Source: a virus (Duplodnaviria > Caudoviricetes). Taken from it: a stretch of DNA of 54,513 nucleotides. Location: positions 1-54,513 of IMG/VR virus record IMGVR_UViG_3300025652_000089. One strand, written 5' to 3'. The notes under the pieces were generated by a model that saw nothing but the letters and a program-made list of their open reading frames with translations, had not been told where the DNA came from and ran no database searches. The position numbers and the translations under genes are program-made. This document shows, piece by piece, positions 27,955-50,341 of this stretch. Each line of letters opens with the position of its first letter. The first letter of the stretch is position 1.

Positions 27955-28052
27955 AAACCAATTCACCAAAATCAATACACAAATATACACATATATATTA
28001 CATAATACATATGCGTATAGCATAATTATCGGGTATTTAAATACCCACTAAA

Positions 28053-40378: not shown

Positions 40379-40865
40379 GATGTTTCTTTATATAGTTAAT
40401 CACGTTTTTTTTTGATTTTGATAGATTAGATTTTGATGTTCCGAGAGATATATTTAAAACCTCAGCAATCTCGTGATGCTTATACCCGTCTAGTAGGTAC
40501 ATCTTAGCCACCTTTAGATATGAAGGTGAAAGACTTTCTATAGCATCGATAACCAATTGGTTAGGTATACCTTCCATGTATGGTTTTTCCTCCTCCTCTG
40601 CGTAGTCATACCTATCAACCAAGTCTGTGTCGTATGTAACCTTTTGGGTCTTACGCCTTCTGTAACTATCTATTGCGGTGTTAATTACAATACGCTTTAT
40701 CCACCCTTCTAACGAGCCTACGTTGTTAAAGCTATCCTTGTACCTTATTACCTTCAAGAAAGCCTCTTGGACGCAGTCTTCTGCATCCTCAAGGCTTCCT
40801 AGGTATTTCCTAGCCACAGCTATATACTGTGTGTAGTTATTATTGCATACGTTAATAGCATCCAT
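40365..40865 (-). CDS. ECF-type sigma-70 factor
   Basis: DAEDCVQEAFLKV...GSLEGWIKRIVINTAID; region 4 GYKHHEIAEVLNISLGTSKSNLSK. Confidence 0.9.
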   Translation of the reverse strand: MDAINVCNNNYTQYIAVARKYLGSLEDAEDCVQEAFLKVIRYKDSFNNVGSLEGWIKRIVINTAIDSYRRRKTQKVTYDTDLVDRYDYAEEEEKPYMEGIPNQLVIDAIESLSPSYLKVAKMYLLDGYKHHEIAEVLNISLGTSKSNLSKSKKNVINYIKKHHDDR

Positions 40866-40878
40866 TCGTATAGCATAA

Positions 40879-41367
40879 TTAGTTTATCTTCTCGGTTAAA
40901 CCCATTACTAAACCAATCTCGTTGAGATAGTTAAGTATTTCTCTCGACCTTGAGTCTTTATGATTTTGATACAAATATAGTGCAATTTCTACAGTCTTGT
41001 TTCCGTGAATTATAGTTGCATGATTTCTATCAAGTATATTACCTATGCTTGTCAAACTTAGCCCATACTTGTTGTGTAGTATGTATCCAATGCATTGTCG
41101 TGTTAATACTATCTCACTATCTCTGCAAGGGGATAATAACTTCTCCTTAGAAATTTCGGGTAGCGCATTAACAACGTCATTAACCATGTTATGTGCTGAC
41201 TGGATTATTACTTCGTTAGAAGATTTAATCTTATAGTTGTTTTTCTTCAGAATCTTACTGACCTTTGACCGTAATCCTTTTGCCTCGTTCTCTAAATCTT
41301 TGATTCGGTTATTGATTTCGATTACTTGTGCATCAACTGTTTGTATTCTCTTTGCGATTGTTTCCAT
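40879..41367 (-). CDS. DnaA C-terminal (domain IV)-like HTH protein with N-terminal coiled coil
   Basis: LLSPCRDSEIVLTRQ..GYI......SLTSIG....RNHATIIHG matches DnaA domain IV. Confidence 0.8.
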   Translation of the reverse strand: METIAKRIQTVDAQVIEINNRIKDLENEAKGLRSKVSKILKKNNYKIKSSNEVIIQSAHNMVNDVVNALPEISKEKLLSPCRDSEIVLTRQCIGYILHNKYGLSLTSIGNILDRNHATIIHGNKTVEIALYLYQNHKDSRSREILNYLNEIGLVMGLTEKIN

Positions 41368-43028: not shown

Positions 43029-43271
43029 ATTTGTTTGATTTATAATTTGGTTTCACCACCAATACCCCGATACTAATGAAAGTACCGAGGCGTTAAGTGG
43101 ACTTACTGTCTAATTGGATAGTTATTTAACGTGTTCTCTATCCCAGCCACATGGTCTGTATTTTTTGCTATGGAAGTGTTTGACTTCTTTCACTCCGCAC
43201 GTTAATAAATAACACAGTGGTCTGACTCAAGGCTTCTACCAGACTGTACGCTAAGTAATTCTCTGTTTAAT

Positions 43272-43335
43272 TAACAACATCTCATCTGACTCGCACAGAT
43301 AGTGTCTCGTATATCCTTCTAGGAGATGGTTGTTA
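43272..43335 (-). ncRNA. structured RNA motif, copy 1 of 2
   Basis: 32-nt core identical to 45144-45175, enclosed by a long stem; strand inferred from flanking genes. Confidence 0.65.
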
Positions 43336-43685: not shown

Positions 43686-43934
43686 TTAGTGGGTATTCAA
43701 ACACCCGATTTGATTATACATAAATAGTTCAACAGTATCTAGGTCTAGTGAACGCTTACCATGCCCTTTACCAGTGGGTCTATACAAAAACTTGGCATCA
43801 CTAAGTAGTTCAATAAAGTGACCATCCTCGTACATGATTACTCCAGTTGTTTTCTTATGAAGTAAAGATGGGTCTATGTTTTTTGGTATTCCTTGAAGAA
43901 AACCACTGCTTTGAAATTCTTTTAATGTTTTCAT
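43686..43934 (-). CDS. hypothetical protein
   Basis: ATG at 43934 (MKTLKEF...) below a TATATTTG promoter at 43950-43957. Confidence 0.6.
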   Translation of the reverse strand: MKTLKEFQSSGFLQGIPKNIDPSLLHKKTTGVIMYEDGHFIELLSDAKFLYRPTGKGHGKRSLDLDTVELFMYNQIGCLNTH

Positions 43935-43966: not shown

Positions 43967-45046
43967 TTAGACGTGTAATTGTCTTGAGTTTAACACTTCA
44001 TTTTCTCTGAACCAGTTACCACAAGACGAACAGTAATAATTGTGAAACAAATCATGCTCAACGTCAGAAAAACACTCTCCACACATAGGGGTGTCTTCAG
44101 TAGGGAATGAATCATCGCTCCATCCAATATCTATTGCTTGGTGACTCTCAGATGCATCAAAACTTGGCTCGTCAAGGTAAGACCTATAGTTATCATAAGA
44201 ATGTGGTTGTTCAAATGATTTATGAAGTTGAGTATTGCTTGATATTTCTTTTGGGTTAAAATATACCCAACAACTTATTGTTTTGTCATTTACTACAATA
44301 GGTATTTGCACTCGTCTGTACCATTGTGGATGACCTTCTAGTGCATCTAGTTTATCCATCTGTACATCACTTACCTTAAACACATCAACATCTACGTTAT
44401 GACCAACGCCTTTTTTATTGACAAGGTAGGGCAGACCGTTTACTATTAATGGATATTTATCCTTAGTGAATCCTGTCCCTATGTGAGTTGCTTTATCAAG
44501 GTATGAGTAGTAGTTGCTATAACCTTTTTTTAATGTCCCATATACCGCAACAAGATTATCTTGTAACACGTTAGCTTTTGAATACCATATACCATCTCTA
44601 TATGTATACAAGTTTCTGTTGTAGATTTGAAAAGAACGAGTCCTTAAGTTTATTGATACAAACCTTGATTCGTAGGTTTCTAGTTTACTTCTCCATGCTT
44701 TCCTTTTAATTGAACCTAGCTGTATTGCTAGTTGCTTGCTGTCGCAAACATTATCATTTCCTAACCCCTGTATAGTTCCGTTATGCATAAGTAACTCATC
44801 TTTGTTCTTACCACACACAAAGGGATGAGTATTCTCTAAGTTCACAGCACCTTTGGTTGCATATCTAAAGTGGGCAATGAATGGTCTATTTGTTAGTAGT
44901 ATTTTATACTCATCTGAATTGTGATAAGTAACTTTGAATGTATCTAGCCATACAATCCCTAATCCATCGGGATTTATTTTGCTTGATGTTTTTGCGATGT
45001 CTTCTGACATCATGTTGTCTTTCTGTTTAATAATAATTACACACAT
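43967..45046 (-). CDS. class II glutamine amidotransferase (Ntn) fused to gamma-glutamylcyclotransferase (AIG2-like) and C-terminal Zn ribbon
   Basis: Met-Cys N-terminus, NPDG.G, HFRYAT, HPF, MHNG, DS; then VAVYGTLKKG, LDALEG...YRR; CGEC...CSSC. Confidence 0.85.
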   Translation of the reverse strand: MCVIIIKQKDNMMSEDIAKTSSKINPDGLGIVWLDTFKVTYHNSDEYKILLTNRPFIAHFRYATKGAVNLENTHPFVCGKNKDELLMHNGTIQGLGNDNVCDSKQLAIQLGSIKRKAWRSKLETYESRFVSINLRTRSFQIYNRNLYTYRDGIWYSKANVLQDNLVAVYGTLKKGYSNYYSYLDKATHIGTGFTKDKYPLIVNGLPYLVNKKGVGHNVDVDVFKVSDVQMDKLDALEGHPQWYRRVQIPIVVNDKTISCWVYFNPKEISSNTQLHKSFEQPHSYDNYRSYLDEPSFDASESHQAIDIGWSDDSFPTEDTPMCGECFSDVEHDLFHNYYCSSCGNWFRENEVLNSRQLHV

Positions 45047-45134: not shown

Positions 45135-45201
45135 AATAACAATATCTCATCTGACTCGCACAGATAGTGTCTCGTCTACCCTTCTAGAAGATATTGTTAT
45201 T
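45135..45201 (-). ncRNA. structured RNA motif, copy 2 of 2
   Basis: Same 32-nt core, different but fully pairing 13-bp outer stem. Confidence 0.65.
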
Positions 45202-45914: not shown

Positions 45915-46001
45915 TTATAAAAATATAATTGCCATGATTATAATAATGATGCAGAAGGCATTAAGCATTGGCTCTGTGATTGTAAATTTGTTATTACTCA
46001 T
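45915..46001 (-). CDS. 28-aa hydrophobic micropeptide
   Basis: MSNNKFTITEPMLNAFCIIIIIMAIIFL*, ATGA-coupled to upstream gene. Confidence 0.4.
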   Translation of the reverse strand: MSNNKFTITEPMLNAFCIIIIIMAIIFL

Positions 46002-46309
46002 ACTTTCTCGTTAATTATTTCTTCACCATATATGTAAGCTAACATATTTACAACCTTTTCACTGTTATCGTAAACACTGGTTGCTTCACCGAAATTATCT
46101 AGTTCATATTGTTGACAAATGCCTACTGCTTCAAACGAATCTATACTATGCTTTTTAAGCCATTCAGACGCTTGGTAATAACCAATGATATAATAGTCCT
46201 CATTGAATGCTAAATGATGCCAATCGTCTCGGTTATTGTCAGTTAGCACCGCCTCATTGATAAGGTCTGAAACGTATGCGTTTAACTCTTCTTTAATACT
46301 TGCTTTCAT
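45998..46309 (-). CDS. acidic early protein (possible Ocr-like DNA mimic)
   Basis: 103 aa, acidic, helical, own promoter-like TACATTCG at 46339-46346; Ocr-like function is a guess. Confidence 0.55.
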   Translation of the reverse strand: MKASIKEELNAYVSDLINEAVLTDNNRDDWHHLAFNEDYYIIGYYQASEWLKKHSIDSFEAVGICQQYELDNFGEATSVYDNSEKVVNMLAYIYGEEIINEKV

Positions 46310-46389
46310 TTTTAATTGATTTTAATTGGTTTGTTTTACGAATGTATACAAACATTTTAATACTTGTCTAAATTACGTCTATTGATTTG

Positions 46390-46542
46390 TTAATTTTTGT
46401 TAATTGCCTTCAACAACCCTCTATTTACTGTAGGGTTTCTAGTCGCAAACCTATCTATTGCTTGCCATTTACTTACTCCGTACTCCTTACCTATCTTAAG
46501 ACCATTTAATAAAATAGTATAGGCTTTTTTGCACTCTTGCAT
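46390..46542 (-). CDS. hypothetical protein (50 aa)
   Basis: Hand-translated MQECKKAYTILLNGLKIGKEYGVSKWQAIDRF...KN*. Confidence 0.55.
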   Translation of the reverse strand: MQECKKAYTILLNGLKIGKEYGVSKWQAIDRFATRNPTVNRGLLKAINKN

Positions 46543-46565
46543 TTTAGATTTTTTTAAGTGGGTAT

Positions 46566-46904
46566 TCAAATACCCGTTTGGTTTCTAGTTAATTCATTTA
46601 CGATGTGTATGTTGTCATGATGGGTTTTTATACCCATGTCGTAACAACTCACAATCATTTTGCAAGCATTCTCTTGCTGTTCCGTTAAGTCTTGACCTAA
46701 GAACCTTAACGCTTCGTTTTTCTGGCTCTCAGTAGGTATGTACTCACCGCCCGCTGTATAGTAATCAAACGCACTCTTTGCTCTGTTTTTCTCTGCCTTT
46801 TTAGCTTGTTTTTCTCGCTTTGCATTTGCGTATTCATAATCATTACTCATTTTCTCAGCGTATGCCTTTGCTTGCGCTTTGCTTGGTCTCCATTTGTAAC
46901 CCAT
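46566..46904 (-). CDS. hypothetical protein
   Basis: 112 aa, MGYKWRPSKAQ..., A/T-rich leader. Confidence 0.7.
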   Translation of the reverse strand: MGYKWRPSKAQAKAYAEKMSNDYEYANAKREKQAKKAEKNRAKSAFDYYTAGGEYIPTESQKNEALRFLGQDLTEQQENACKMIVSCYDMGIKTHHDNIHIVNELTRNQTGI

Positions 46905-46994
46905 AATTTAATCAATTTGCGGCCTTCCTTCATATGTGTTCCCACTCCTATGCATTCAGCCTAGTTTATTCATCATGCGTATAGCATAATATAG

Positions 46995-47049
46995 TTTCCG
47001 TTTCGTCCTTTTGGACTCATCAGTATGGGCGAATACCCATAGACGGAAA
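46995..47049 (-). ncRNA. type III hammerhead ribozyme
   Basis: UUUCCGUC^UAUGGG-UAUUCG-CCCAUA-CUGAUGA-GUCC-AAAA-GGAC-GAA-ACGGAAA: complete catalytic core, three perfect stems, GUC cleavage triplet. Confidence 0.93.
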
Positions 47050-47073
47050 GGAGACGCTAAGCGCGTCCCCTTT
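47047..47073 (-). other. hairpin between amidoligase stop and hammerhead
   Basis: AAAGGGGACGC-GCUUA-GCGUCUCCUUU; 3' U's shared with hammerhead stem III. Confidence 0.6.
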
Positions 47074-47081
47074 GCGATTTG

Positions 47082-48059
47082 TCAGCTATTCCATCCCATC
47101 AATTCGAGTGCTTCATTTGTGTAAAACTCACGTCCCAAACATCGCATTCCAAAGCACTTAACAACTTCAGCACTTATCTTGTTAGTTGTTAATACCTTTT
47201 TAAAGACCTTAGCTAATTCTAGCTTAGCATTGACCTTATCCATGTCATTTGAATACATTGATTTGATGATAGGTGTAATGCGCTTAAGAAAGGCTGCATG
47301 TGTTCCGTTCGGGTTATTGATGCTGAAGTCTAAAAGCTCATACATTAACTCGTAGCGTCTCATGGTTTGTTTTACACTGGTAAAACGGCTAACCAATCTA
47401 AACTCAATTAAGTCCCCTTTTACTAAACATACATTATACCTACCGTTGTTGTTTATTCGCTCACTGTGGGAAATCTGCATGGTAGGGTTACCGTTGCAAT
47501 AGCCGTTCGACAGTCGCTTGTTGAAAAGCGCCAAAATGATTCCGCAATTTCCGCGAATTGCTTTCATTATTTCTTCGCCATCCATACCTTGCACCCCTAA
47601 TGTGATGTGGCCGCCACAACTTTGGTTGCTTGGTGAATACTCATCATTAATAACTTTCTTAGCGTCATGTATCATGCTGAAGACTTTATTTCGCCAAAGC
47701 CCTGCACCCACTAATGGTAAAATGTTAGTGATGGCTTCGACTCCATTTCTCACTCCATTTGCGCCACAACTTGAGTCGTATTCCCAATGTGAGAATAAAG
47801 GGTATTCTTTTATCGCGCTTCTTGGTACTGAGTTTTTTTCAATTTCCATTCCTATAGTAAAACGGCTATCCATTTCGTCATATCTCGCACCATTGACCAA
47901 GTTTTTCTTTGCATTACGGTTAAGGTTGACAATGTCTAGATGCTTCGCCCCTTTGTTGTGGGTAATTGGTCGAATGCCAATTCGACTACCTTCATGATAC
48001 CTTAAAACTTGTGCTCTATTGTTTTCACCTGTTACTTCGTATTTGATTGAATTATTCAT
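47082..48059 (-). CDS. putative amidoligase (COOH-NH2 ligase, glutamine synthetase-like fold)
   Basis: TIGMEIE, DSSC..GVE.IT..L, SCGGHI, IEFR motifs. Confidence 0.75.
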   Translation of the reverse strand: MNNSIKYEVTGENNRAQVLRYHEGSRIGIRPITHNKGAKHLDIVNLNRNAKKNLVNGARYDEMDSRFTIGMEIEKNSVPRSAIKEYPLFSHWEYDSSCGANGVRNGVEAITNILPLVGAGLWRNKVFSMIHDAKKVINDEYSPSNQSCGGHITLGVQGMDGEEIMKAIRGNCGIILALFNKRLSNGYCNGNPTMQISHSERINNNGRYNVCLVKGDLIEFRLVSRFTSVKQTMRRYELMYELLDFSINNPNGTHAAFLKRITPIIKSMYSNDMDKVNAKLELAKVFKKVLTTNKISAEVVKCFGMRCLGREFYTNEALELMGWNS

Positions 48060-48099
48060 TTTGATTTGATTTAAGTGGGTATTTGAATACCCGTTTGAA

Positions 48100-48762
48100 T
48101 TATTGGTTAATTGTGTTTGCTATTAATGAGACTGCGGCGGAAATTTCCTCTAAATTGCTACCTGTTAAGTTACCGTTATCATCTATTCTCAATGATAGAT
48201 TTTTTCCATTCGTATTCTTAAATGATAATGTCAAAACATAGTTAACGCTCTCAGCTATTTCCGCGCTTTCTATTGCTTCATTTTCTGCTTCCGTAACTTC
48301 ATCCTCACTAGCATCAGCGTCAATGCCTAATGCTTCGTTTGACAGGTCAATGTCTTTGGCAAATTTCAATAACCCAATTAATGACCTGTCGGCTTTTTCA
48401 CTTGCAGCAATTAACCTATCACATGCCACATTGAACGCGGCAATAATTCGTTCGTCTAGCTTCGCTACCTGTAAACATCTGTTGTATTGGCGCTTTTCCA
48501 TTCCTAAAGCGATTGACCCAAATTCGTTTTTTGTCCATGATATACCAGCGTCTAGTAGCGTTTCTTTGCCTTCATCGCTATTAAACCATTCGGTCGCATT
48601 GGCGATGAGATTGGATAGGTGAACACTAGCAGTAAATTTTTTCGTAGCATAACTGTTTTTTGAACGCTTTGCTGCATTGATATCACGAATGTTCACTGCA
48701 ATTTTGAACGCATCGCTGTTGAGGAATGCCGCTTCGATTGATAAAATTTCTCTGTTTTCCAT
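48100..48762 (-). CDS. first early gene, hypothetical protein
   Basis: 220 aa, possible HTH, acidic linker; promoter-like TATATTTA at 48829-48836. Confidence 0.7.
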   Translation of the reverse strand: MENREILSIEAAFLNSDAFKIAVNIRDINAAKRSKNSYATKKFTASVHLSNLIANATEWFNSDEGKETLLDAGISWTKNEFGSIALGMEKRQYNRCLQVAKLDERIIAAFNVACDRLIAASEKADRSLIGLLKFAKDIDLSNEALGIDADASEDEVTEAENEAIESAEIAESVNYVLTLSFKNTNGKNLSLRIDDNGNLTGSNLEEISAAVSLIANTINQ

Positions 48763-49271
48763 AGTTAAAGTGTTAATTATCAGCGAGTTAAGTGATTTAT
48801 TTGGTTTGTGTTACTCGCTTTCATGCTGTAAATATACACTATTCACTAGAATTAGACGGTAATTAGACAAGTTTTATGCAGTGGGTATTCAAATACCCGT
48901 TTGTGTTGGTGATGGTTTATTTGTGATTGAGTTTAGATTGACAGTTATTATGCGCTAAGTGAATGCGTGCAGCAAACAGCGCATTACATCAACTGGTATG
49001 AATCACAACGCGTAACTAGTCTAGTATGCATATATCAATACCCATGGAATAGTTGTTACCTATGGACTAAACTCATGGAATGCTGAAACTTATGACTGAT
49101 GATGGTCAATTGATGGGGGACGTGGGTCAAATGAAATCGATTTTTTTATTTGGAATTAATTTTATTTTTCGCTGTATAACCCAATACCCCTGAATAAGTA
49201 AACAAGTTTTTTAAATAAAAAAAACTCTAACGTGACACTAAGATTTATGTGACGTTAAACAGTGTTTGAAC

Positions 49272-49333
49272 AAAAGTGTAAACATAGTAAGTATAATATA
49301 TATATATCCCTACTACTTTTACACTTTTTAAAC
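49272..49333. repeat. 60-bp imperfect palindrome, copy 2
   Basis: aaaagtgtaaacatagtaagtataata...tatatccctactacttttacacttttt. Confidence 0.9.
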
Positions 49334-49432
49334 CACCATTAGGACTGACGATGCCTCTATTATGGTTTTCAATTATTTTTTAAATTCTACGTTTTTGACG
49401 TAACTATATATGTATGGGTAATAATATTAAAC

Positions 49433-50341
49433 ATGGCTAGGAAGAACGAAGCTAAATGGAAAAGGATAGTTGCGTCTGTCAAGGCAAGTAGCAAGGGTGG
49501 TAAACCAGGACAGTGGTCAGCCCGTAAGGCGCAGTTAGCAACACAGCGTTACAAGAAGTCTGGTGGCACATACACAGGCCCTAAAACAAAAGCCCAAAAG
49601 TCTTTGTCTAAGTGGACAAAAGAGGACTGGGGTACAAAATCTGGAAAGCCATCGACACAAGGTAGTAAGGCTACAGGGGAGAGGTACCTACCCAAGAAGG
49701 TCCGTGAGGGTTTAACAAAGGAAGAGTACGAGGAAACAAGTAGAAAAAAACGAGAGGATACAAAGAAGGGTAAGCAGGTTAGTAAACAACCAAAGAAGAT
49801 AGCCAAGAAGACATCGAAACTAAAAGGCCCTAGTATGGATGGTAATCGTAAAGGATATAAAAAAGTTATAAGTGAGGAATCTGGTTCAACGGAGCAAGGT
49901 AGGAAAACCGTTGTTGCTACATACAGACCATCTCGTGGTCTAAGCAAGGTTGTAGAGAGAGACATAGAATACAGAACCGCTACATCACCAAAGAATAAAA
50001 TAATAGAAAAAGAGGTTACAAAAAGGTACGGGGACGGTAGTGTTAAGTCATACAAAAACATCGTCAAACAAAACGGTAGTATAGTTAAAGAAGTGACTAC
50101 ACCAAAAGTAAAGTATAAAAAAGGAGAAAAACCATTCGGTAAAAAAATTGGAGCAAACATGAAGGGAGTACCACACTACAAGAAAGACGGTACCGAATAC
50201 AAGGGGGCCACACACAAGTCAGGTAAACAACTAATGTCTGGTAAGACGCATACATCATCCAGCGTGAACCTGTTTCACAAGGACGAGATACCTGGACCAA
50301 GTATGCAGGGTTCATGGATGCGTAAACACGTTAAAGGATAG
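49433..50341 (+). CDS. very basic modular protein (putative internal virion/DNA-binding)
   Basis: 302 aa K/R-rich; modules separated by GPSM/GANM/GPSM. Confidence 0.7.
   Translation: MARKNEAKWKRIVASVKASSKGGKPGQWSARKAQLATQRYKKSGGTYTGPKTKAQKSLSKWTKEDWGTKSGKPSTQGSKATGERYLPKKVREGLTKEEYEETSRKKREDTKKGKQVSKQPKKIAKKTSKLKGPSMDGNRKGYKKVISEESGSTEQGRKTVVATYRPSRGLSKVVERDIEYRTATSPKNKIIEKEVTKRYGDGSVKSYKNIVKQNGSIVKEVTTPKVKYKKGEKPFGKKIGANMKGVPHYKKDGTEYKGATHKSGKQLMSGKTHTSSSVNLFHKDEIPGPSMQGSWMRKHVKG

What the first reader, a model, noticed from the sequence alone, without database searches (positions are those of the whole stretch)
46995..47073. Type III hammerhead ribozyme in the early operon
Seen (minus strand, sense to flanking genes): stem III UUUCCGU/ACGGAAA, cleavage triplet GUC (cut between 47042 and 47041), stem I UAUGGG/CCCAUA, core CUGAUGA, stem II GUCC/GGAC, GAAA. 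Known: this is the complete hammerhead consensus; hammerheads are reported in phage intergenic regions but their role is mostly unknown. It lies 33 nt after the amidoligase stop; an 11-bp hairpin (47047-47073) shares three U's with stem III. Inference: self-cleavage splits the earliest transcript into a hairpin-protected upstream mRNA and a 5'-OH downstream mRNA, as part of a wider RNA-processing scheme with the other repeated elements.
Basis: partly seen in the sequence, partly recalled or inferred. Interest (0 to 1): 0.85.

Follow-up and report, generated by a model that had tools for sequence, protein, structure and literature searches.

The report
Hairpin-plus-hammerhead ribozyme between phage genes
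A genuine self-cutting hammerhead RNA sits just after a gene in this uncultured freshwater phage, directly behind a strong hairpin; related phages keep the same layout, so it most likely cuts a long message into separately capped pieces, which is a known kind of element whose purpose has never been proven.

Summary
Rfam's type III hammerhead model (RF00008) matches window 47049..46995 on the minus strand, which is the gene-sense strand, at 52.6 bits. The family cut-off is 48.5. It is the only Rfam match in the window. Every core nucleotide is canonical, and the cut falls between 47042 and 47041.

The element is conserved. A model built from 11 copies finds 48 hammerheads in the window and in 24 of 28 related phage records, all on the sense strand. 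All six stem I pairs show compensatory changes. Two positions recur: after the amidoligase-like gene and after the amidotransferase-cyclotransferase fusion gene.

Nearly every copy shares one layout: stop codon, a strong hairpin abutting stem III, the ribozyme, a short leader, then ATG. One relative carries a twister ribozyme built on the lineage's repeated hairpin.

The best reading is self-contained cutting of a polycistronic message into a hairpin-ended upstream piece and a ribozyme-capped 5'-OH downstream piece. Cleavage and transcription were not tested.

This is a new member of a known kind (Perreault 2011). Earlier notes of this scan describe a similar stop-hairpin-hammerhead layout on other DNA.

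The parts
46995..47049 (-). Type III hammerhead ribozyme, 55 nt. Stem III 5' arm 47049-47043; C17 at 47042 (cut between 47042 and 47041); stem I hairpin 47041-47024; core CUGAUGA 47023-47017; stem II hairpin 47016-47005; GAA 47004-47002; stem III 3' arm 47001-46995.
   Evidence: Rfam RF00008 52.6 bits (gathering 48.5), E 8e-9, full model. Own model R1 76.2 bits. Sequence read.
47047..47073 (-). Hairpin of 11 pairs (one G-U) with a 5-nt loop, directly abutting stem III and sharing three U's with it.
   Evidence: The fold contains it. The hairpin plus the hammerhead fold together lie within 0.3 kcal/mol of the minimum free energy. In a 90-95% similar contig, pair 47066/47054 changes from A-U to G-C and 47065 changes C to U, giving U-G. 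Abutting hairpins occur in 42 of 44 and 80 of 104 related copies.
47082..48059 (-). Upstream gene, 325 aa, amidoligase-like (a lead only). Its stop codon lies 32 nt before the ribozyme.
   Evidence: ORF. 28 homologous loci. No Pfam match in 0 of 12 homologues. Nearest Atlas clusters carry PF12224. A hammerhead directly follows the homologue in 24 of 28 relatives.
46566..46904 (-). Next ORF of 40 aa or more downstream on the same strand, 112 aa, no family match. Its ATG lies 90 nt after the ribozyme.
46975..46992 (-). 18-nt motif immediately after the ribozyme, one of three copies in the window (also 28011-28028 and 40864-40881). Role unknown; whether it belongs to the unit is uncertain.
   Evidence: Repeat family D9. 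Three exact copies of the 12-nt core. Contexts read.

Best explanation
This is a genuine type III hammerhead ribozyme encoded on the sense strand, in the gap between an amidoligase-like gene and the next gene of an uncultured freshwater tailed phage.

Proposed mechanism:
1. The two genes are transcribed as one message.
2. The RNA folds into a hairpin stacked end-to-end on stem III of the hammerhead.
3. The ribozyme cuts itself after C17, between 47042 and 47041.
4. The upstream message then ends in the hairpin plus an 8-nt tail carrying a 2',3'-cyclic phosphate. This would shield it from 3'-to-5' exonucleases.
5. The downstream message starts with a 5'-hydroxyl that is already base-paired in stem I, followed by stem II. 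This would shield it from nucleases that depend on the 5' end.
6. The two pieces can then have separate lifetimes and separate translation.

This would make it a host-independent counterpart of the RNase III cuts in phage T7 early mRNA.

Shown here: the ribozyme fold, its conservation with covariation, its sense orientation, and the fixed stop-hairpin-ribozyme-leader-ATG layout in relatives.

Inferred: co-transcription, cleavage in the cell, and the protective effect of the two ends.
For: Identity:
- RF00008 scores above its gathering cut-off with a full-length match, and all core positions are canonical.

Conservation:
- RF00008 finds full-length matches below its cut-off (21-47 bits) in 23 of 28 related records.
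- Model R1 finds 48 hits of 48-82 bits in the window plus 24 of 28 relatives, each on its locus's sense strand (the strand of the amidoligase-like gene).
- In one of the four relatives without a hit the site lies off the contig end.

Covariation:
- On the 11 seed sequences, 95.2% of cells are paired, 6 of 6 stem I pairs change on both sides, and 0 of 500 shuffles reach the observed score.
- On the 44 distinct rows fitted to the model, 88.8% are paired and 15 of 17 pairs show double changes. That alignment leans towards the model's structure.

Loops:
- The loops are conserved while the stems vary. Loop 1 is U-G-W-G-U-R and loop 2 is N-A-A-A in 106 copies. This is the pattern expected for the loop-loop contact that fast natural hammerheads need.

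Layout:
- The gap from stop codon to ribozyme is 19-52 nt in all 48 hits.
- 42 of 44 distinct copies have a strong upstream hairpin that reaches stem III.
- In 71 further phage loci, 80 of 104 distinct copies have such a hairpin against 68 of 520 control positions, and 88 of 104 have an ORF start within 45 nt, median 22 nt.

Energetics and natural variation:
- The fold with hairpin plus hammerhead is within 0.3 kcal/mol of the minimum for the window, and within a median 1.65 kcal/mol over 44 copies.
- The hairpin keeps its pairing through a compensatory change in a natural variant.

Other points:
- A different ribozyme class (twister-P3, 61.8 bits) occupies the neighbouring gap in one relative and is built on the lineage's repeated hairpin. 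This suggests that cutting next to the hairpin is the selected trait.
- No promoter-like site was found between the two genes by the sigma-70 consensus scan or a TAnnTTTG scan. This is weak evidence.
- Literature passages read: Perreault 2011 (PMC3088659) showed that clustered prophage hammerheads cleave in vitro and proposed processing of long phage transcripts.
Against: - No experiment or read-level RNA data were available. All runs laid were contigs, and the one contig from an RNA library (a 90-95% similar relative) bridges the cleavage site. This neither supports nor refutes cleavage.
- The window copy departs from the family pattern in two ways. Loop 1 is UAUUCG and carries minority letters at positions 2, 4 and 5 (7, 16 and 10 of 106), which might weaken the tertiary contact. 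The next ORF start is 90 nt away, not about 22 nt.
- The predicted minimum-free-energy fold of the window element uses the full hairpin and lacks stem III.
- The window has only one ribozyme. The second conserved site, after the fusion gene, has none.
- The same kind of hairpin also occurs 109 times without a ribozyme in relatives, so the hairpin may have a job of its own unrelated to cleavage.
- The effect of a 5'-OH end depends on the host's nucleases, and the host is unknown.
Confidence: 0.6

Rival explanations
1. Tunable switch. The hairpin and stem III compete for the shared nucleotides, so the share of transcripts that are cut is set by folding kinetics, temperature, Mg2+ or a hairpin-binding protein. 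Under this reading the element grades expression of the downstream gene rather than cutting constitutively.
For: The hairpin's 3' arm overlaps the 5' arm of the model's stem III in 42 of 44 distinct copies. In 30 of 44 copies the minimum-free-energy fold lacks stem III, although the active fold lies within a median 1.65 kcal/mol. Conserved non-canonical U-U (12 of 41) and A-A (2 of 41) pairs at positions 10.1-11.1 in relatives suggest deliberately weakened ribozymes. The repeated hairpin has a conserved sequence and a sense-strand loop bias (85 TTCAAA against 17 TTTGAA), as a protein-binding site would.
Against: In most relatives the two outermost model pairs of stem III are simply unpaired (35 and 24 of 44 rows). 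The 'overlap' is therefore largely a 5-pair stem III next to a hairpin, not a true competition. The window copy has the canonical G-C pair. No ligand or protein partner is known.
Confidence: 0.14
2. Leader maker. The main purpose is to create a new 5' end close to the next start codon. This would free a short A/U-rich leader for ribosome loading in a system that does not use Shine-Dalgarno sites. Protection of the upstream piece would be incidental.
For: In relatives the ribozyme ends a median 22 nt before the next ATG (88 of 104 within 45 nt). Only 1 of 42 window ORFs has a Shine-Dalgarno-like 4-mer upstream, against a 14.8% background, and the leaders are 78% A+T. A 2026 paper proposes that RNA viruses use hammerheads for translation initiation (PMC13725137, abstract and passages read).
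Against: In the window the next ORF start is 90 nt away. Many junctions in relatives have the hairpin and the same short leader without any ribozyme (109 of 138), so translation there does not need a cut.
Confidence: 0.12
3. Functionless passenger. The hammerhead is a selfish or decaying element that spreads among phage intergenic gaps and does nothing useful for the phage.
For: Ribozyme presence is patchy. There are 0 to 5 per 15-kb early region, and the window lacks the copy after the fusion gene. Very similar 3' halves occur in many unrelated contigs and in many cellular genomes.
Against: It is kept at the same position behind the same gene in 24 of 28 relatives whose proteins are only 39-53% identical. 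The stems change by compensatory substitutions and the core and loops stay conserved. This is the signature of selection on the fold.
Confidence: 0.06
4. Circle maker. Where two ribozymes flank a gene in relatives, the 5'-OH and cyclic-phosphate ends are joined, by the ribozyme itself or by an RtcB-type ligase, into circular RNA. The window's single copy would be a remnant of such a pair.
For: Relatives carry 2 to 5 sense-strand hammerheads that flank single genes or short blocks. The chemistry of the ends fits. Perreault 2011 raised this possibility.
Against: Perreault 2011 report that they could not detect spliced or circular products (passage read). The window has one ribozyme only. No RtcB or RNA ligase family was seen among the 28 window proteins scanned against Pfam.
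Confidence: 0.03

Closest known systems
Type III hammerhead ribozymes (Rfam RF00008)
   Same: Same three-stem junction with the same core (CUGAUGA, GAAA, GUC), an open stem III and closed stems I and II. The window copy scores above the family's gathering cut-off over the full model.
   Different: A 2026 paper says that nearly all hammerheads known in infectious circular RNAs are type III, while DNA-encoded ones of bacteria and phages are usually type I (passage read in PMC13725137). This one is encoded in a DNA phage, inside an operon, and is always fused to an upstream hairpin. Most relatives score below the Rfam cut-off (0 of 28 over it).
Clustered hammerheads flanking genes in prophages (Perreault et al. 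2011, PMC3088659)
   Same: Sense-strand ribozymes in gaps between phage genes, several per operon in relatives. The proposed role is cutting long phage transcripts into gene-length messages (passages read).
   Different: The window has a single copy. The passages of that paper that I read do not mention the fixed layout of stop codon, abutting hairpin, ribozyme, roughly 22-nt leader and ATG, nor the link to the amidoligase-like and amidotransferase-cyclotransferase genes. I did not read the whole text or the supplements. Relatives include U-U and A-A pairs at 10.1-11.1, which that study's filter rejected.
RNase III processing sites of phage T7 early mRNA (recalled from textbook knowledge; no call)
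   Same: It would work the same way: a polycistronic early message is cut between genes, leaving a hairpin at the 3' end of the upstream piece that stabilises it.
   Different: Here the cut would be made by the RNA itself, with no host enzyme, and would leave 2',3'-cyclic phosphate and 5'-OH ends. This is functional analogy only, not family membership.
Shared gene neighbourhoods of twister and hammerhead ribozymes (Roth et al. 2014, as summarised in the review PMC6765202)
   Same: Two unrelated self-cleaving classes occupy equivalent places near the same genes. Here a twister-P3 lies before the amidoligase-like gene in one relative, and hammerheads lie after it in 24 others. The review says the reason for such shared associations is undetermined.
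   Different: I could not read Roth 2014 or Weinberg 2015 (not held). I therefore cannot say whether these particular genes are on their lists.

Membership tests
Hammerhead ribozyme, type III (RF00008) | Score at or above the curated Rfam gathering threshold over the whole model | tested here: met
   52.6 bits against 48.5, model positions 1-54 of 54, E 8e-9.
Hammerhead ribozyme, type III (RF00008) | Conserved catalytic core: C3 U4 G5 A6 N7 G8 A9, G12 A13 A14, the A15.1-U16.1 pair, and an NUH cleavage triplet | tested here: met
   CUGAUGA at 47023-47017, GAA plus A15.1 at 47004-47001, U16.1 at 47043, and GUC ending at 47042.
Hammerhead ribozyme, type III (RF00008) | Three helices around the core with pairs next to the core (1.1-2.1 and 10.1-11.1), stems I and II closed by loops, and stem III open | tested here: met
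   U1.1-A2.1 and G10.1-C11.1. Stem I has 6 pairs (7 with U-G), stem II has 4, stem III has 7. The helices are supported by compensatory changes in relatives.
Hammerhead ribozyme, type III (RF00008) | Loop-loop tertiary contact that gives fast cleavage at cellular Mg2+ | tested here: inconclusive
   The family's loops are conserved (U-G-W-G-U-R and N-A-A-A in 106 copies), but the window's loop 1 (UAUUCG) carries minority letters at three positions. No 3D or kinetic test was possible.
Hammerhead ribozyme, type III (RF00008) | Site-specific self-cleavage giving 2',3'-cyclic phosphate and 5'-OH ends | not testable with these tools
   Only contigs of public runs were available. They cannot show RNA ends.
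Clustered phage or prophage hammerheads that flank genes (Perreault 2011) | Several sense-strand hammerheads close together flanking single genes or short gene blocks | tested here: not met
   The window has one copy only. The feature is met in relatives, with up to 5 in 15 kb (L063).
Trans-acting or split 'one ribozyme, many targets' arrangement (lead from earlier scan notes) | Repeated substrate-like sites matching the ribozyme's arms elsewhere in the genome | tested here: not met
   The 13-nt substrate strand with up to 3 mismatches gives 9 matches against 8.5 expected, and only the ribozyme's own site is exact. Stems I and II are closed by loops.

The most novel reading that the evidence does not exclude
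This phage lineage runs a self-contained 'RNA punctuation' system. A repeated intergenic hairpin marks gene boundaries. At chosen boundaries a self-cleaving ribozyme has been grafted directly onto that hairpin: usually a type III hammerhead, and in one relative a twister whose long stem is the hairpin itself. Canonical G-C copies would cut fully. Conserved U-U and A-A variants at positions 10.1-11.1 would cut only partly. Together they would set graded, gene-specific ratios of linked to separated messages for the amidoligase and amidotransferase-cyclotransferase module, without any host nuclease.
Probability: 0.25. Interest if true: 0.7.

Novelty: new member of a known kind. Interest (0 to 1): 0.45.

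Why it matters

This lineage offers a clean comparative system for that question:
- One ribozyme is kept behind the same gene in dozens of diverged phages.
- It always sits in the same frame of stop codon, hairpin, ribozyme and short leader.
- Natural 'controls' exist: the same hairpin without a ribozyme, a twister in place of a hammerhead, and non-canonical core variants.

This turns the vague idea that 'it processes mRNA' into specific reporter experiments on end protection and on partial against full cleavage.

On its own the window's single copy is an ordinary hammerhead that a routine Rfam scan would annotate.

Tried and rejected
Approaches that led nowhere or were rejected:
- **Chance match:** rejected (E 8e-9; conservation).
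- **More ribozymes in the window:** none of any Rfam family at E <= 1, and no second R1 hit.
- **Close relatives among deposited phages:** megablast of 46000-48500 found none. A protein search found one uncultured record at 41.8% identity.
- **Pfam, PHROGs and PDB names for the 325-aa protein:** none. Only the Atlas lead to PF12224.
- **Expression evidence:** 1 of 24 listed runs is RNA, holding 0.05 of the sampled words, and it is kept as contigs. Its contig bridges the cut site and shows nothing about cleavage.
- **Promoter between the ribozyme and the next ORF:** the sigma-70-type scan found none there and was not above shuffles overall (42 against 40.6). TAnnTTTG was not enriched (63 against 62.8) and is absent on the minus strand from 46454 to 50102.
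- **Trans-target sites:** none.
- **The window's triple motif (43221, 43285, 45150) as a ribozyme stand-in:** absent from 196 held loci, present in one other viral contig, and not pursued.
- **Host from shared ribozyme type:**
  - The 3'-half pattern hits mostly genomes titled as candidate-phyla-radiation groups (64 of the 80 loci listed).
  - R1 matched 14 of 150 other Patescibacteria against 0 of 150 other Bacteroidota, with only 37 candidates scored per genome.
  - None of 42 window proteins has a homologue in those 80 loci, and the window lacks Shine-Dalgarno sites.
  - I therefore draw no host conclusion.
- **Papers:** Roth 2014 and Weinberg 2015 could not be read. Supplements are closed and may list gene associations that bear on novelty. 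A search for 'hammerhead' plus 'amidoligase' found 0 papers. Searches listed no paper describing this layout; I read listings only.

Full report
**1. What is there**

On the minus strand, window 47049..46995 reads as a complete type III hammerhead:
- Stem III: UUUCCGU paired with ACGGAAA.
- Cleavage triplet: GUC, with C17 at 47042.
- Stem I: UAUGGG/CCCAUA with loop UAUUCG.
- Core: CUGAUGA.
- Stem II: GUCC-AAAA-GGAC, followed by GAAA.

Rfam's RF00008 matches it end to end at 52.6 bits (gathering score 48.5, E 8e-9). It is the only Rfam match in the 54.5-kb window, at the gathering threshold and at E <= 1. Directly upstream lies an 11-pair hairpin (47073-47047) whose last three U's can also start stem III.

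The element lies 32 nt after the stop of a 325-aa ORF (48059..47082) and 90 nt before the ATG of a 112-aa ORF (46904..46566). Both are on the same strand.

**2. The genome**

The window is a whole IMG/VR virus record. It is linear and estimated 85% complete. Family searches found:
- ribonucleotide reductase, primase-helicase, an ERF recombinase and a PDDEXK-like nuclease;
- two sigma-70-like factors;
- a weak portal match and a crAss-type muzzle C-terminal domain.

No RNA polymerase, RtcB or RNA ligase family was seen among the 28 proteins scanned against Pfam.

Fourteen public runs from at least nine studies hold half or more of the sampled words of 46400-48200. They are labelled freshwater, aquatic or viral metagenomes.

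Only 1 of 42 ORFs has a Shine-Dalgarno-like word upstream, against a 14.8% background, and the leaders are A/T-rich. The host is unknown. From my own knowledge, the absence of Shine-Dalgarno sites fits Bacteroidota-type translation.

The 325-aa protein has no Pfam, PHROG or PDB match. Its nearest named Atlas clusters carry PF12224 Amidoligase_2 on 12% and 61% of members, so 'amidoligase' is a reasonable lead and no more. The ORF at 45046..43967 is a glutamine-amidotransferase plus gamma-glutamyl-cyclotransferase fusion.

**3. Conservation**

Twenty-eight viral contigs encode a homologue of the 325-aa protein at 39-53% identity. At Rfam's gathering threshold none shows a hammerhead near it. This is a threshold effect:
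- RF00008 run over the whole records gives full-length matches of 21-47 bits in 23 of 28, and none over the cut-off.
- I aligned 11 distinct copies, built model R1 and searched about 15 kb of the early region of every relative.
- R1 found 48 hits of 48-82 bits in the window plus 24 of 28 relatives, all on the sense strand, with 1 to 5 per region.
- Of the four relatives without a hit, one has the site beyond its contig end.

The structure is supported by compensatory changes:
- On the 11 seed rows, 95.2% of cells are paired, 6 of 6 stem I pairs change on both sides, 0 of 500 shuffles reach the score, and slid controls drop to 38-51% paired.
- On 44 distinct rows fitted to the model, 88.8% are paired and 15 of 17 pairs show double changes. 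That alignment leans towards the model's structure.

Two positions recur. One is directly after the amidoligase-like gene (24 loci plus the window). The other is directly after the homologue of the amidotransferase-cyclotransferase fusion (13 loci, 53-60% identity to the window protein). The window lacks the second.

**4. The layout**

In all 48 hits the ribozyme begins 19-52 nt after a stop codon. In 42 of 44 distinct copies that space holds a strong hairpin (-12 to -30 kcal/mol) whose 3' arm runs into the first nucleotides of the model's stem III. The next ATG usually follows within 16-42 nt.

A wider sample gave the same picture.
- R1 found 118 matches at E <= 1e-4 in 71 further loci.
- I analysed the 112 of these that scored 47 bits or more, which gave 104 distinct copies with enough upstream sequence.
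- 80 of the 104 have a hairpin of 7 or more pairs ending within 4 nt of stem III, against 68 of 520 random positions in the same loci.
- 88 of the 104 have the ATG of an ORF of 35 aa or more within 45 nt, median 22 nt.

In relatives the two outermost model pairs of stem III are mostly unpaired. The usual form is therefore a 5-pair stem III abutting the hairpin with no spacer, a geometry that allows end-to-end stacking.

For the window, the fold with a 10-pair hairpin next to a complete hammerhead is -35.6 kcal/mol against a minimum of -35.9. The median difference over 44 copies is 1.65 kcal/mol, a figure that still includes three copies my parser mis-assigned.

In a natural variant 90-95% similar to the window, hairpin pair 47066/47054 changes from A-U to G-C, and 47065 changes C to U, giving U-G. 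The hairpin is therefore under structural selection.

**5. The hairpin is an element in its own right**

In relatives the hairpin is most often GTGTC-N6-GACAC. There are 138 copies in the 28 early regions. On the sense strand the loop reads TTCAAA 85 times and TTTGAA 17 times. Only 29 copies are followed by a hammerhead, and 29 of 47 hammerheads are preceded by this type.

The window's five palindromes (28030, 43689, 46558, 48075, 48881) have the same centre and a different stem, and they occupy equivalent places. One example is just upstream of the amidoligase-like gene's ATG.

In one relative the copy in front of that gene forms the long stem of a type-P3 twister ribozyme. It scores 61.8 bits against a gathering score of 39.9 and ends 28 nt before the ATG. 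Two unrelated ribozyme classes are thus attached to the same hairpin family around the same gene. This matches the unexplained 'shared gene neighbourhoods' of twister and hammerhead ribozymes described in the 2019 review (PMC6765202, passages read).

**6. How it most likely works**

Type III topology leaves only 8 nt of the ribozyme on the upstream product and about 47 nt (stems I and II) on the downstream product. After the cut:
- the upstream message would end in hairpin plus 8 nt with a cyclic phosphate;
- the downstream message would begin with a paired 5'-OH nucleotide in a compact two-hairpin fold, followed by the leader.

Protection of 3' ends by hairpins and of 5' ends by terminal stem-loops are established principles of bacterial mRNA decay. 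I state this from my own knowledge. The analogy to RNase III cuts in T7 early mRNA is likewise recalled.

Perreault et al. 2011 (PMC3088659, passages read) showed that clustered prophage hammerheads cleave in vitro, and one set in E. coli. They proposed processing of long phage transcripts.

I give this reading 0.6. The steps from fold to cleavage in the cell, and from cleavage to differential stability, are inferred.

Rival readings:
- a kinetic or protein-controlled switch (0.14);
- a device that makes a short 5' leader for translation (0.12);
- a passenger element (0.06);
- circle formation (0.03).

**7. Points against, or peculiar to the window**

- Loop 1 (UAUUCG) departs from the family pattern U-G-W-G-U-R at three positions.
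- The next ORF start is 90 nt away. The gap holds an 18-nt motif with two other copies in the window, whose role I could not determine.
- There is a single ribozyme and no trans-target sites.
- The only RNA-library data are contigs, and one bridges the cut site in a relative. This is uninformative.
- No promoter-like site lies between the two genes, but neither promoter scan was above chance overall.

**8. Novelty**

Hammerheads in phage intergenic gaps, several per operon, are in print. The window copy passes the Rfam threshold. It is a new member of a known kind.

Three things may be new and worth a specialist's look:
- the fixed hairpin-ribozyme-leader frame across more than a hundred copies;
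- its link to the amidoligase and amidotransferase-cyclotransferase genes;
- the conserved U-U (12 of 41) and A-A (2 of 41) pairs at 10.1-11.1, which the 2011 survey's filter rejected.

I could not check the supplements or the two Nature Chemical Biology papers. My searches for 'hammerhead' with 'amidoligase' (0 papers) and the two broader searches (listings only) found no description.

Earlier notes of this scan describe a similar stop-hairpin-type III hammerhead layout on other DNA, in candidate-phyla-radiation bacteria, and hammerheads just after stop codons in a lake phage. Consistent with that:
- the ribozyme's 3'-half pattern hits genomes titled as such groups in 64 of the 80 loci listed;
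- R1 matched 14 of 150 other Patescibacteria against 0 of 150 other Bacteroidota sampled, with only 37 candidates scored per genome.

Those loci share no protein with this phage, so I draw no host conclusion.

Noticed in passing
L050-L077 (early regions of 28 relatives); window 28030-28048, 43689-43707, 46558-46576, 48075-48093, 48881-48899: A repeated intergenic hairpin, GTGTC-N6-GACAC, occurs 138 times in the 28 loci. The sense-strand loop reads TTCAAA 85 times and TTTGAA 17 times, and flanking bases that vary in sequence extend the stem. The window's five palindromes share the centre, have a different stem and sit at equivalent places. The strand bias argues for a role in RNA rather than as a symmetric DNA operator.
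   Followed up: partly
L075:1429-1506 (-), the same element as L027:2895-2972 (+): A type-P3 twister ribozyme (61.8 bits, gathering 39.9) ends 28 nt before the amidoligase-like gene of one relative. Its long stem-loop is a copy of the lineage's repeated hairpin.
   Followed up: partly
Relatives, e.g. L053:7897-7952, L055:7193-7248 (-), L061:7935-7989, L072:7892-7946 (-): Hammerheads after the amidotransferase-cyclotransferase gene carry U-U or A-A in place of the canonical G10.1-C11.1 pair. U-U goes with GUA (17 of 20) and A-A with GUU (4 of 4). They are conserved across genomes with covarying stems, so they may be weakened but functional variants.
   Followed up: partly
L053 after 4949, L055 before 9908 (-), L058 after 5885, L076 after 4961 and after 5976: In several relatives a second conserved hairpin of the form CCGGAGGTTT-N-AAACCTCC follows the ribozyme, before the next ATG.
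   Followed up: no
window 28011-28028, 40864-40881, 46975-46992 (minus strand): An 18-nt motif occurs in three copies. Each ends at or just before an ATG. One copy lies directly after the hammerhead, one at the start of a sigma-factor gene, and one after the last minus-strand gene next to a palindrome.
   Followed up: partly
window 43221-43238, 43285-43321, 45150-45186 (minus strand): There are three copies of a structured motif, TAGAAG...GAGTCAGA (0 expected by chance). Two lie inside long covarying outer stems in gaps placed like the hammerhead's. The motif is absent from 196 held loci and present in one other IMG/VR contig. It has no Rfam match. In a ribozyme-rich lineage it is a candidate for a cleavage assay.
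   Followed up: partly
L198-L277 (genome contigs); G029-G183: The hammerhead 3'-half pattern occurs in at least 120 stretches of cellular genomes. 64 of the 80 listed are titled Saccharibacteria, Paceibacterota, Parcubacteria or similar, often with several copies within 8 kb. R1 matched 14 of 150 other Patescibacteria against 0 of 150 other Bacteroidota. No window protein has a homologue in those loci.
   Followed up: partly
L002, L003, L004, L006, L011 at about 1180-1540: A tRNA gene (71-74 bits) lies about 1.5 kb upstream of the amidoligase-like gene in five relatives. The window has none.
   Followed up: no
L112, L118, L132 (IMG/VR records of 366, 457 and 377 nt): Very small 'viral' records carry R1 matches. 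L112 and L132 match full-length at 58-61 bits, and L118 matches at 38 bits, cut off at its 5' end. Their size suggests viroid-like or satellite RNAs rather than phages.
   Followed up: no
window, all 42 ORF starts: Only 1 of 42 ORFs has a Shine-Dalgarno-like 4-mer at -20 to -4, against a 14.8% background. The leaders are 47% A and 31% T.
   Followed up: yes
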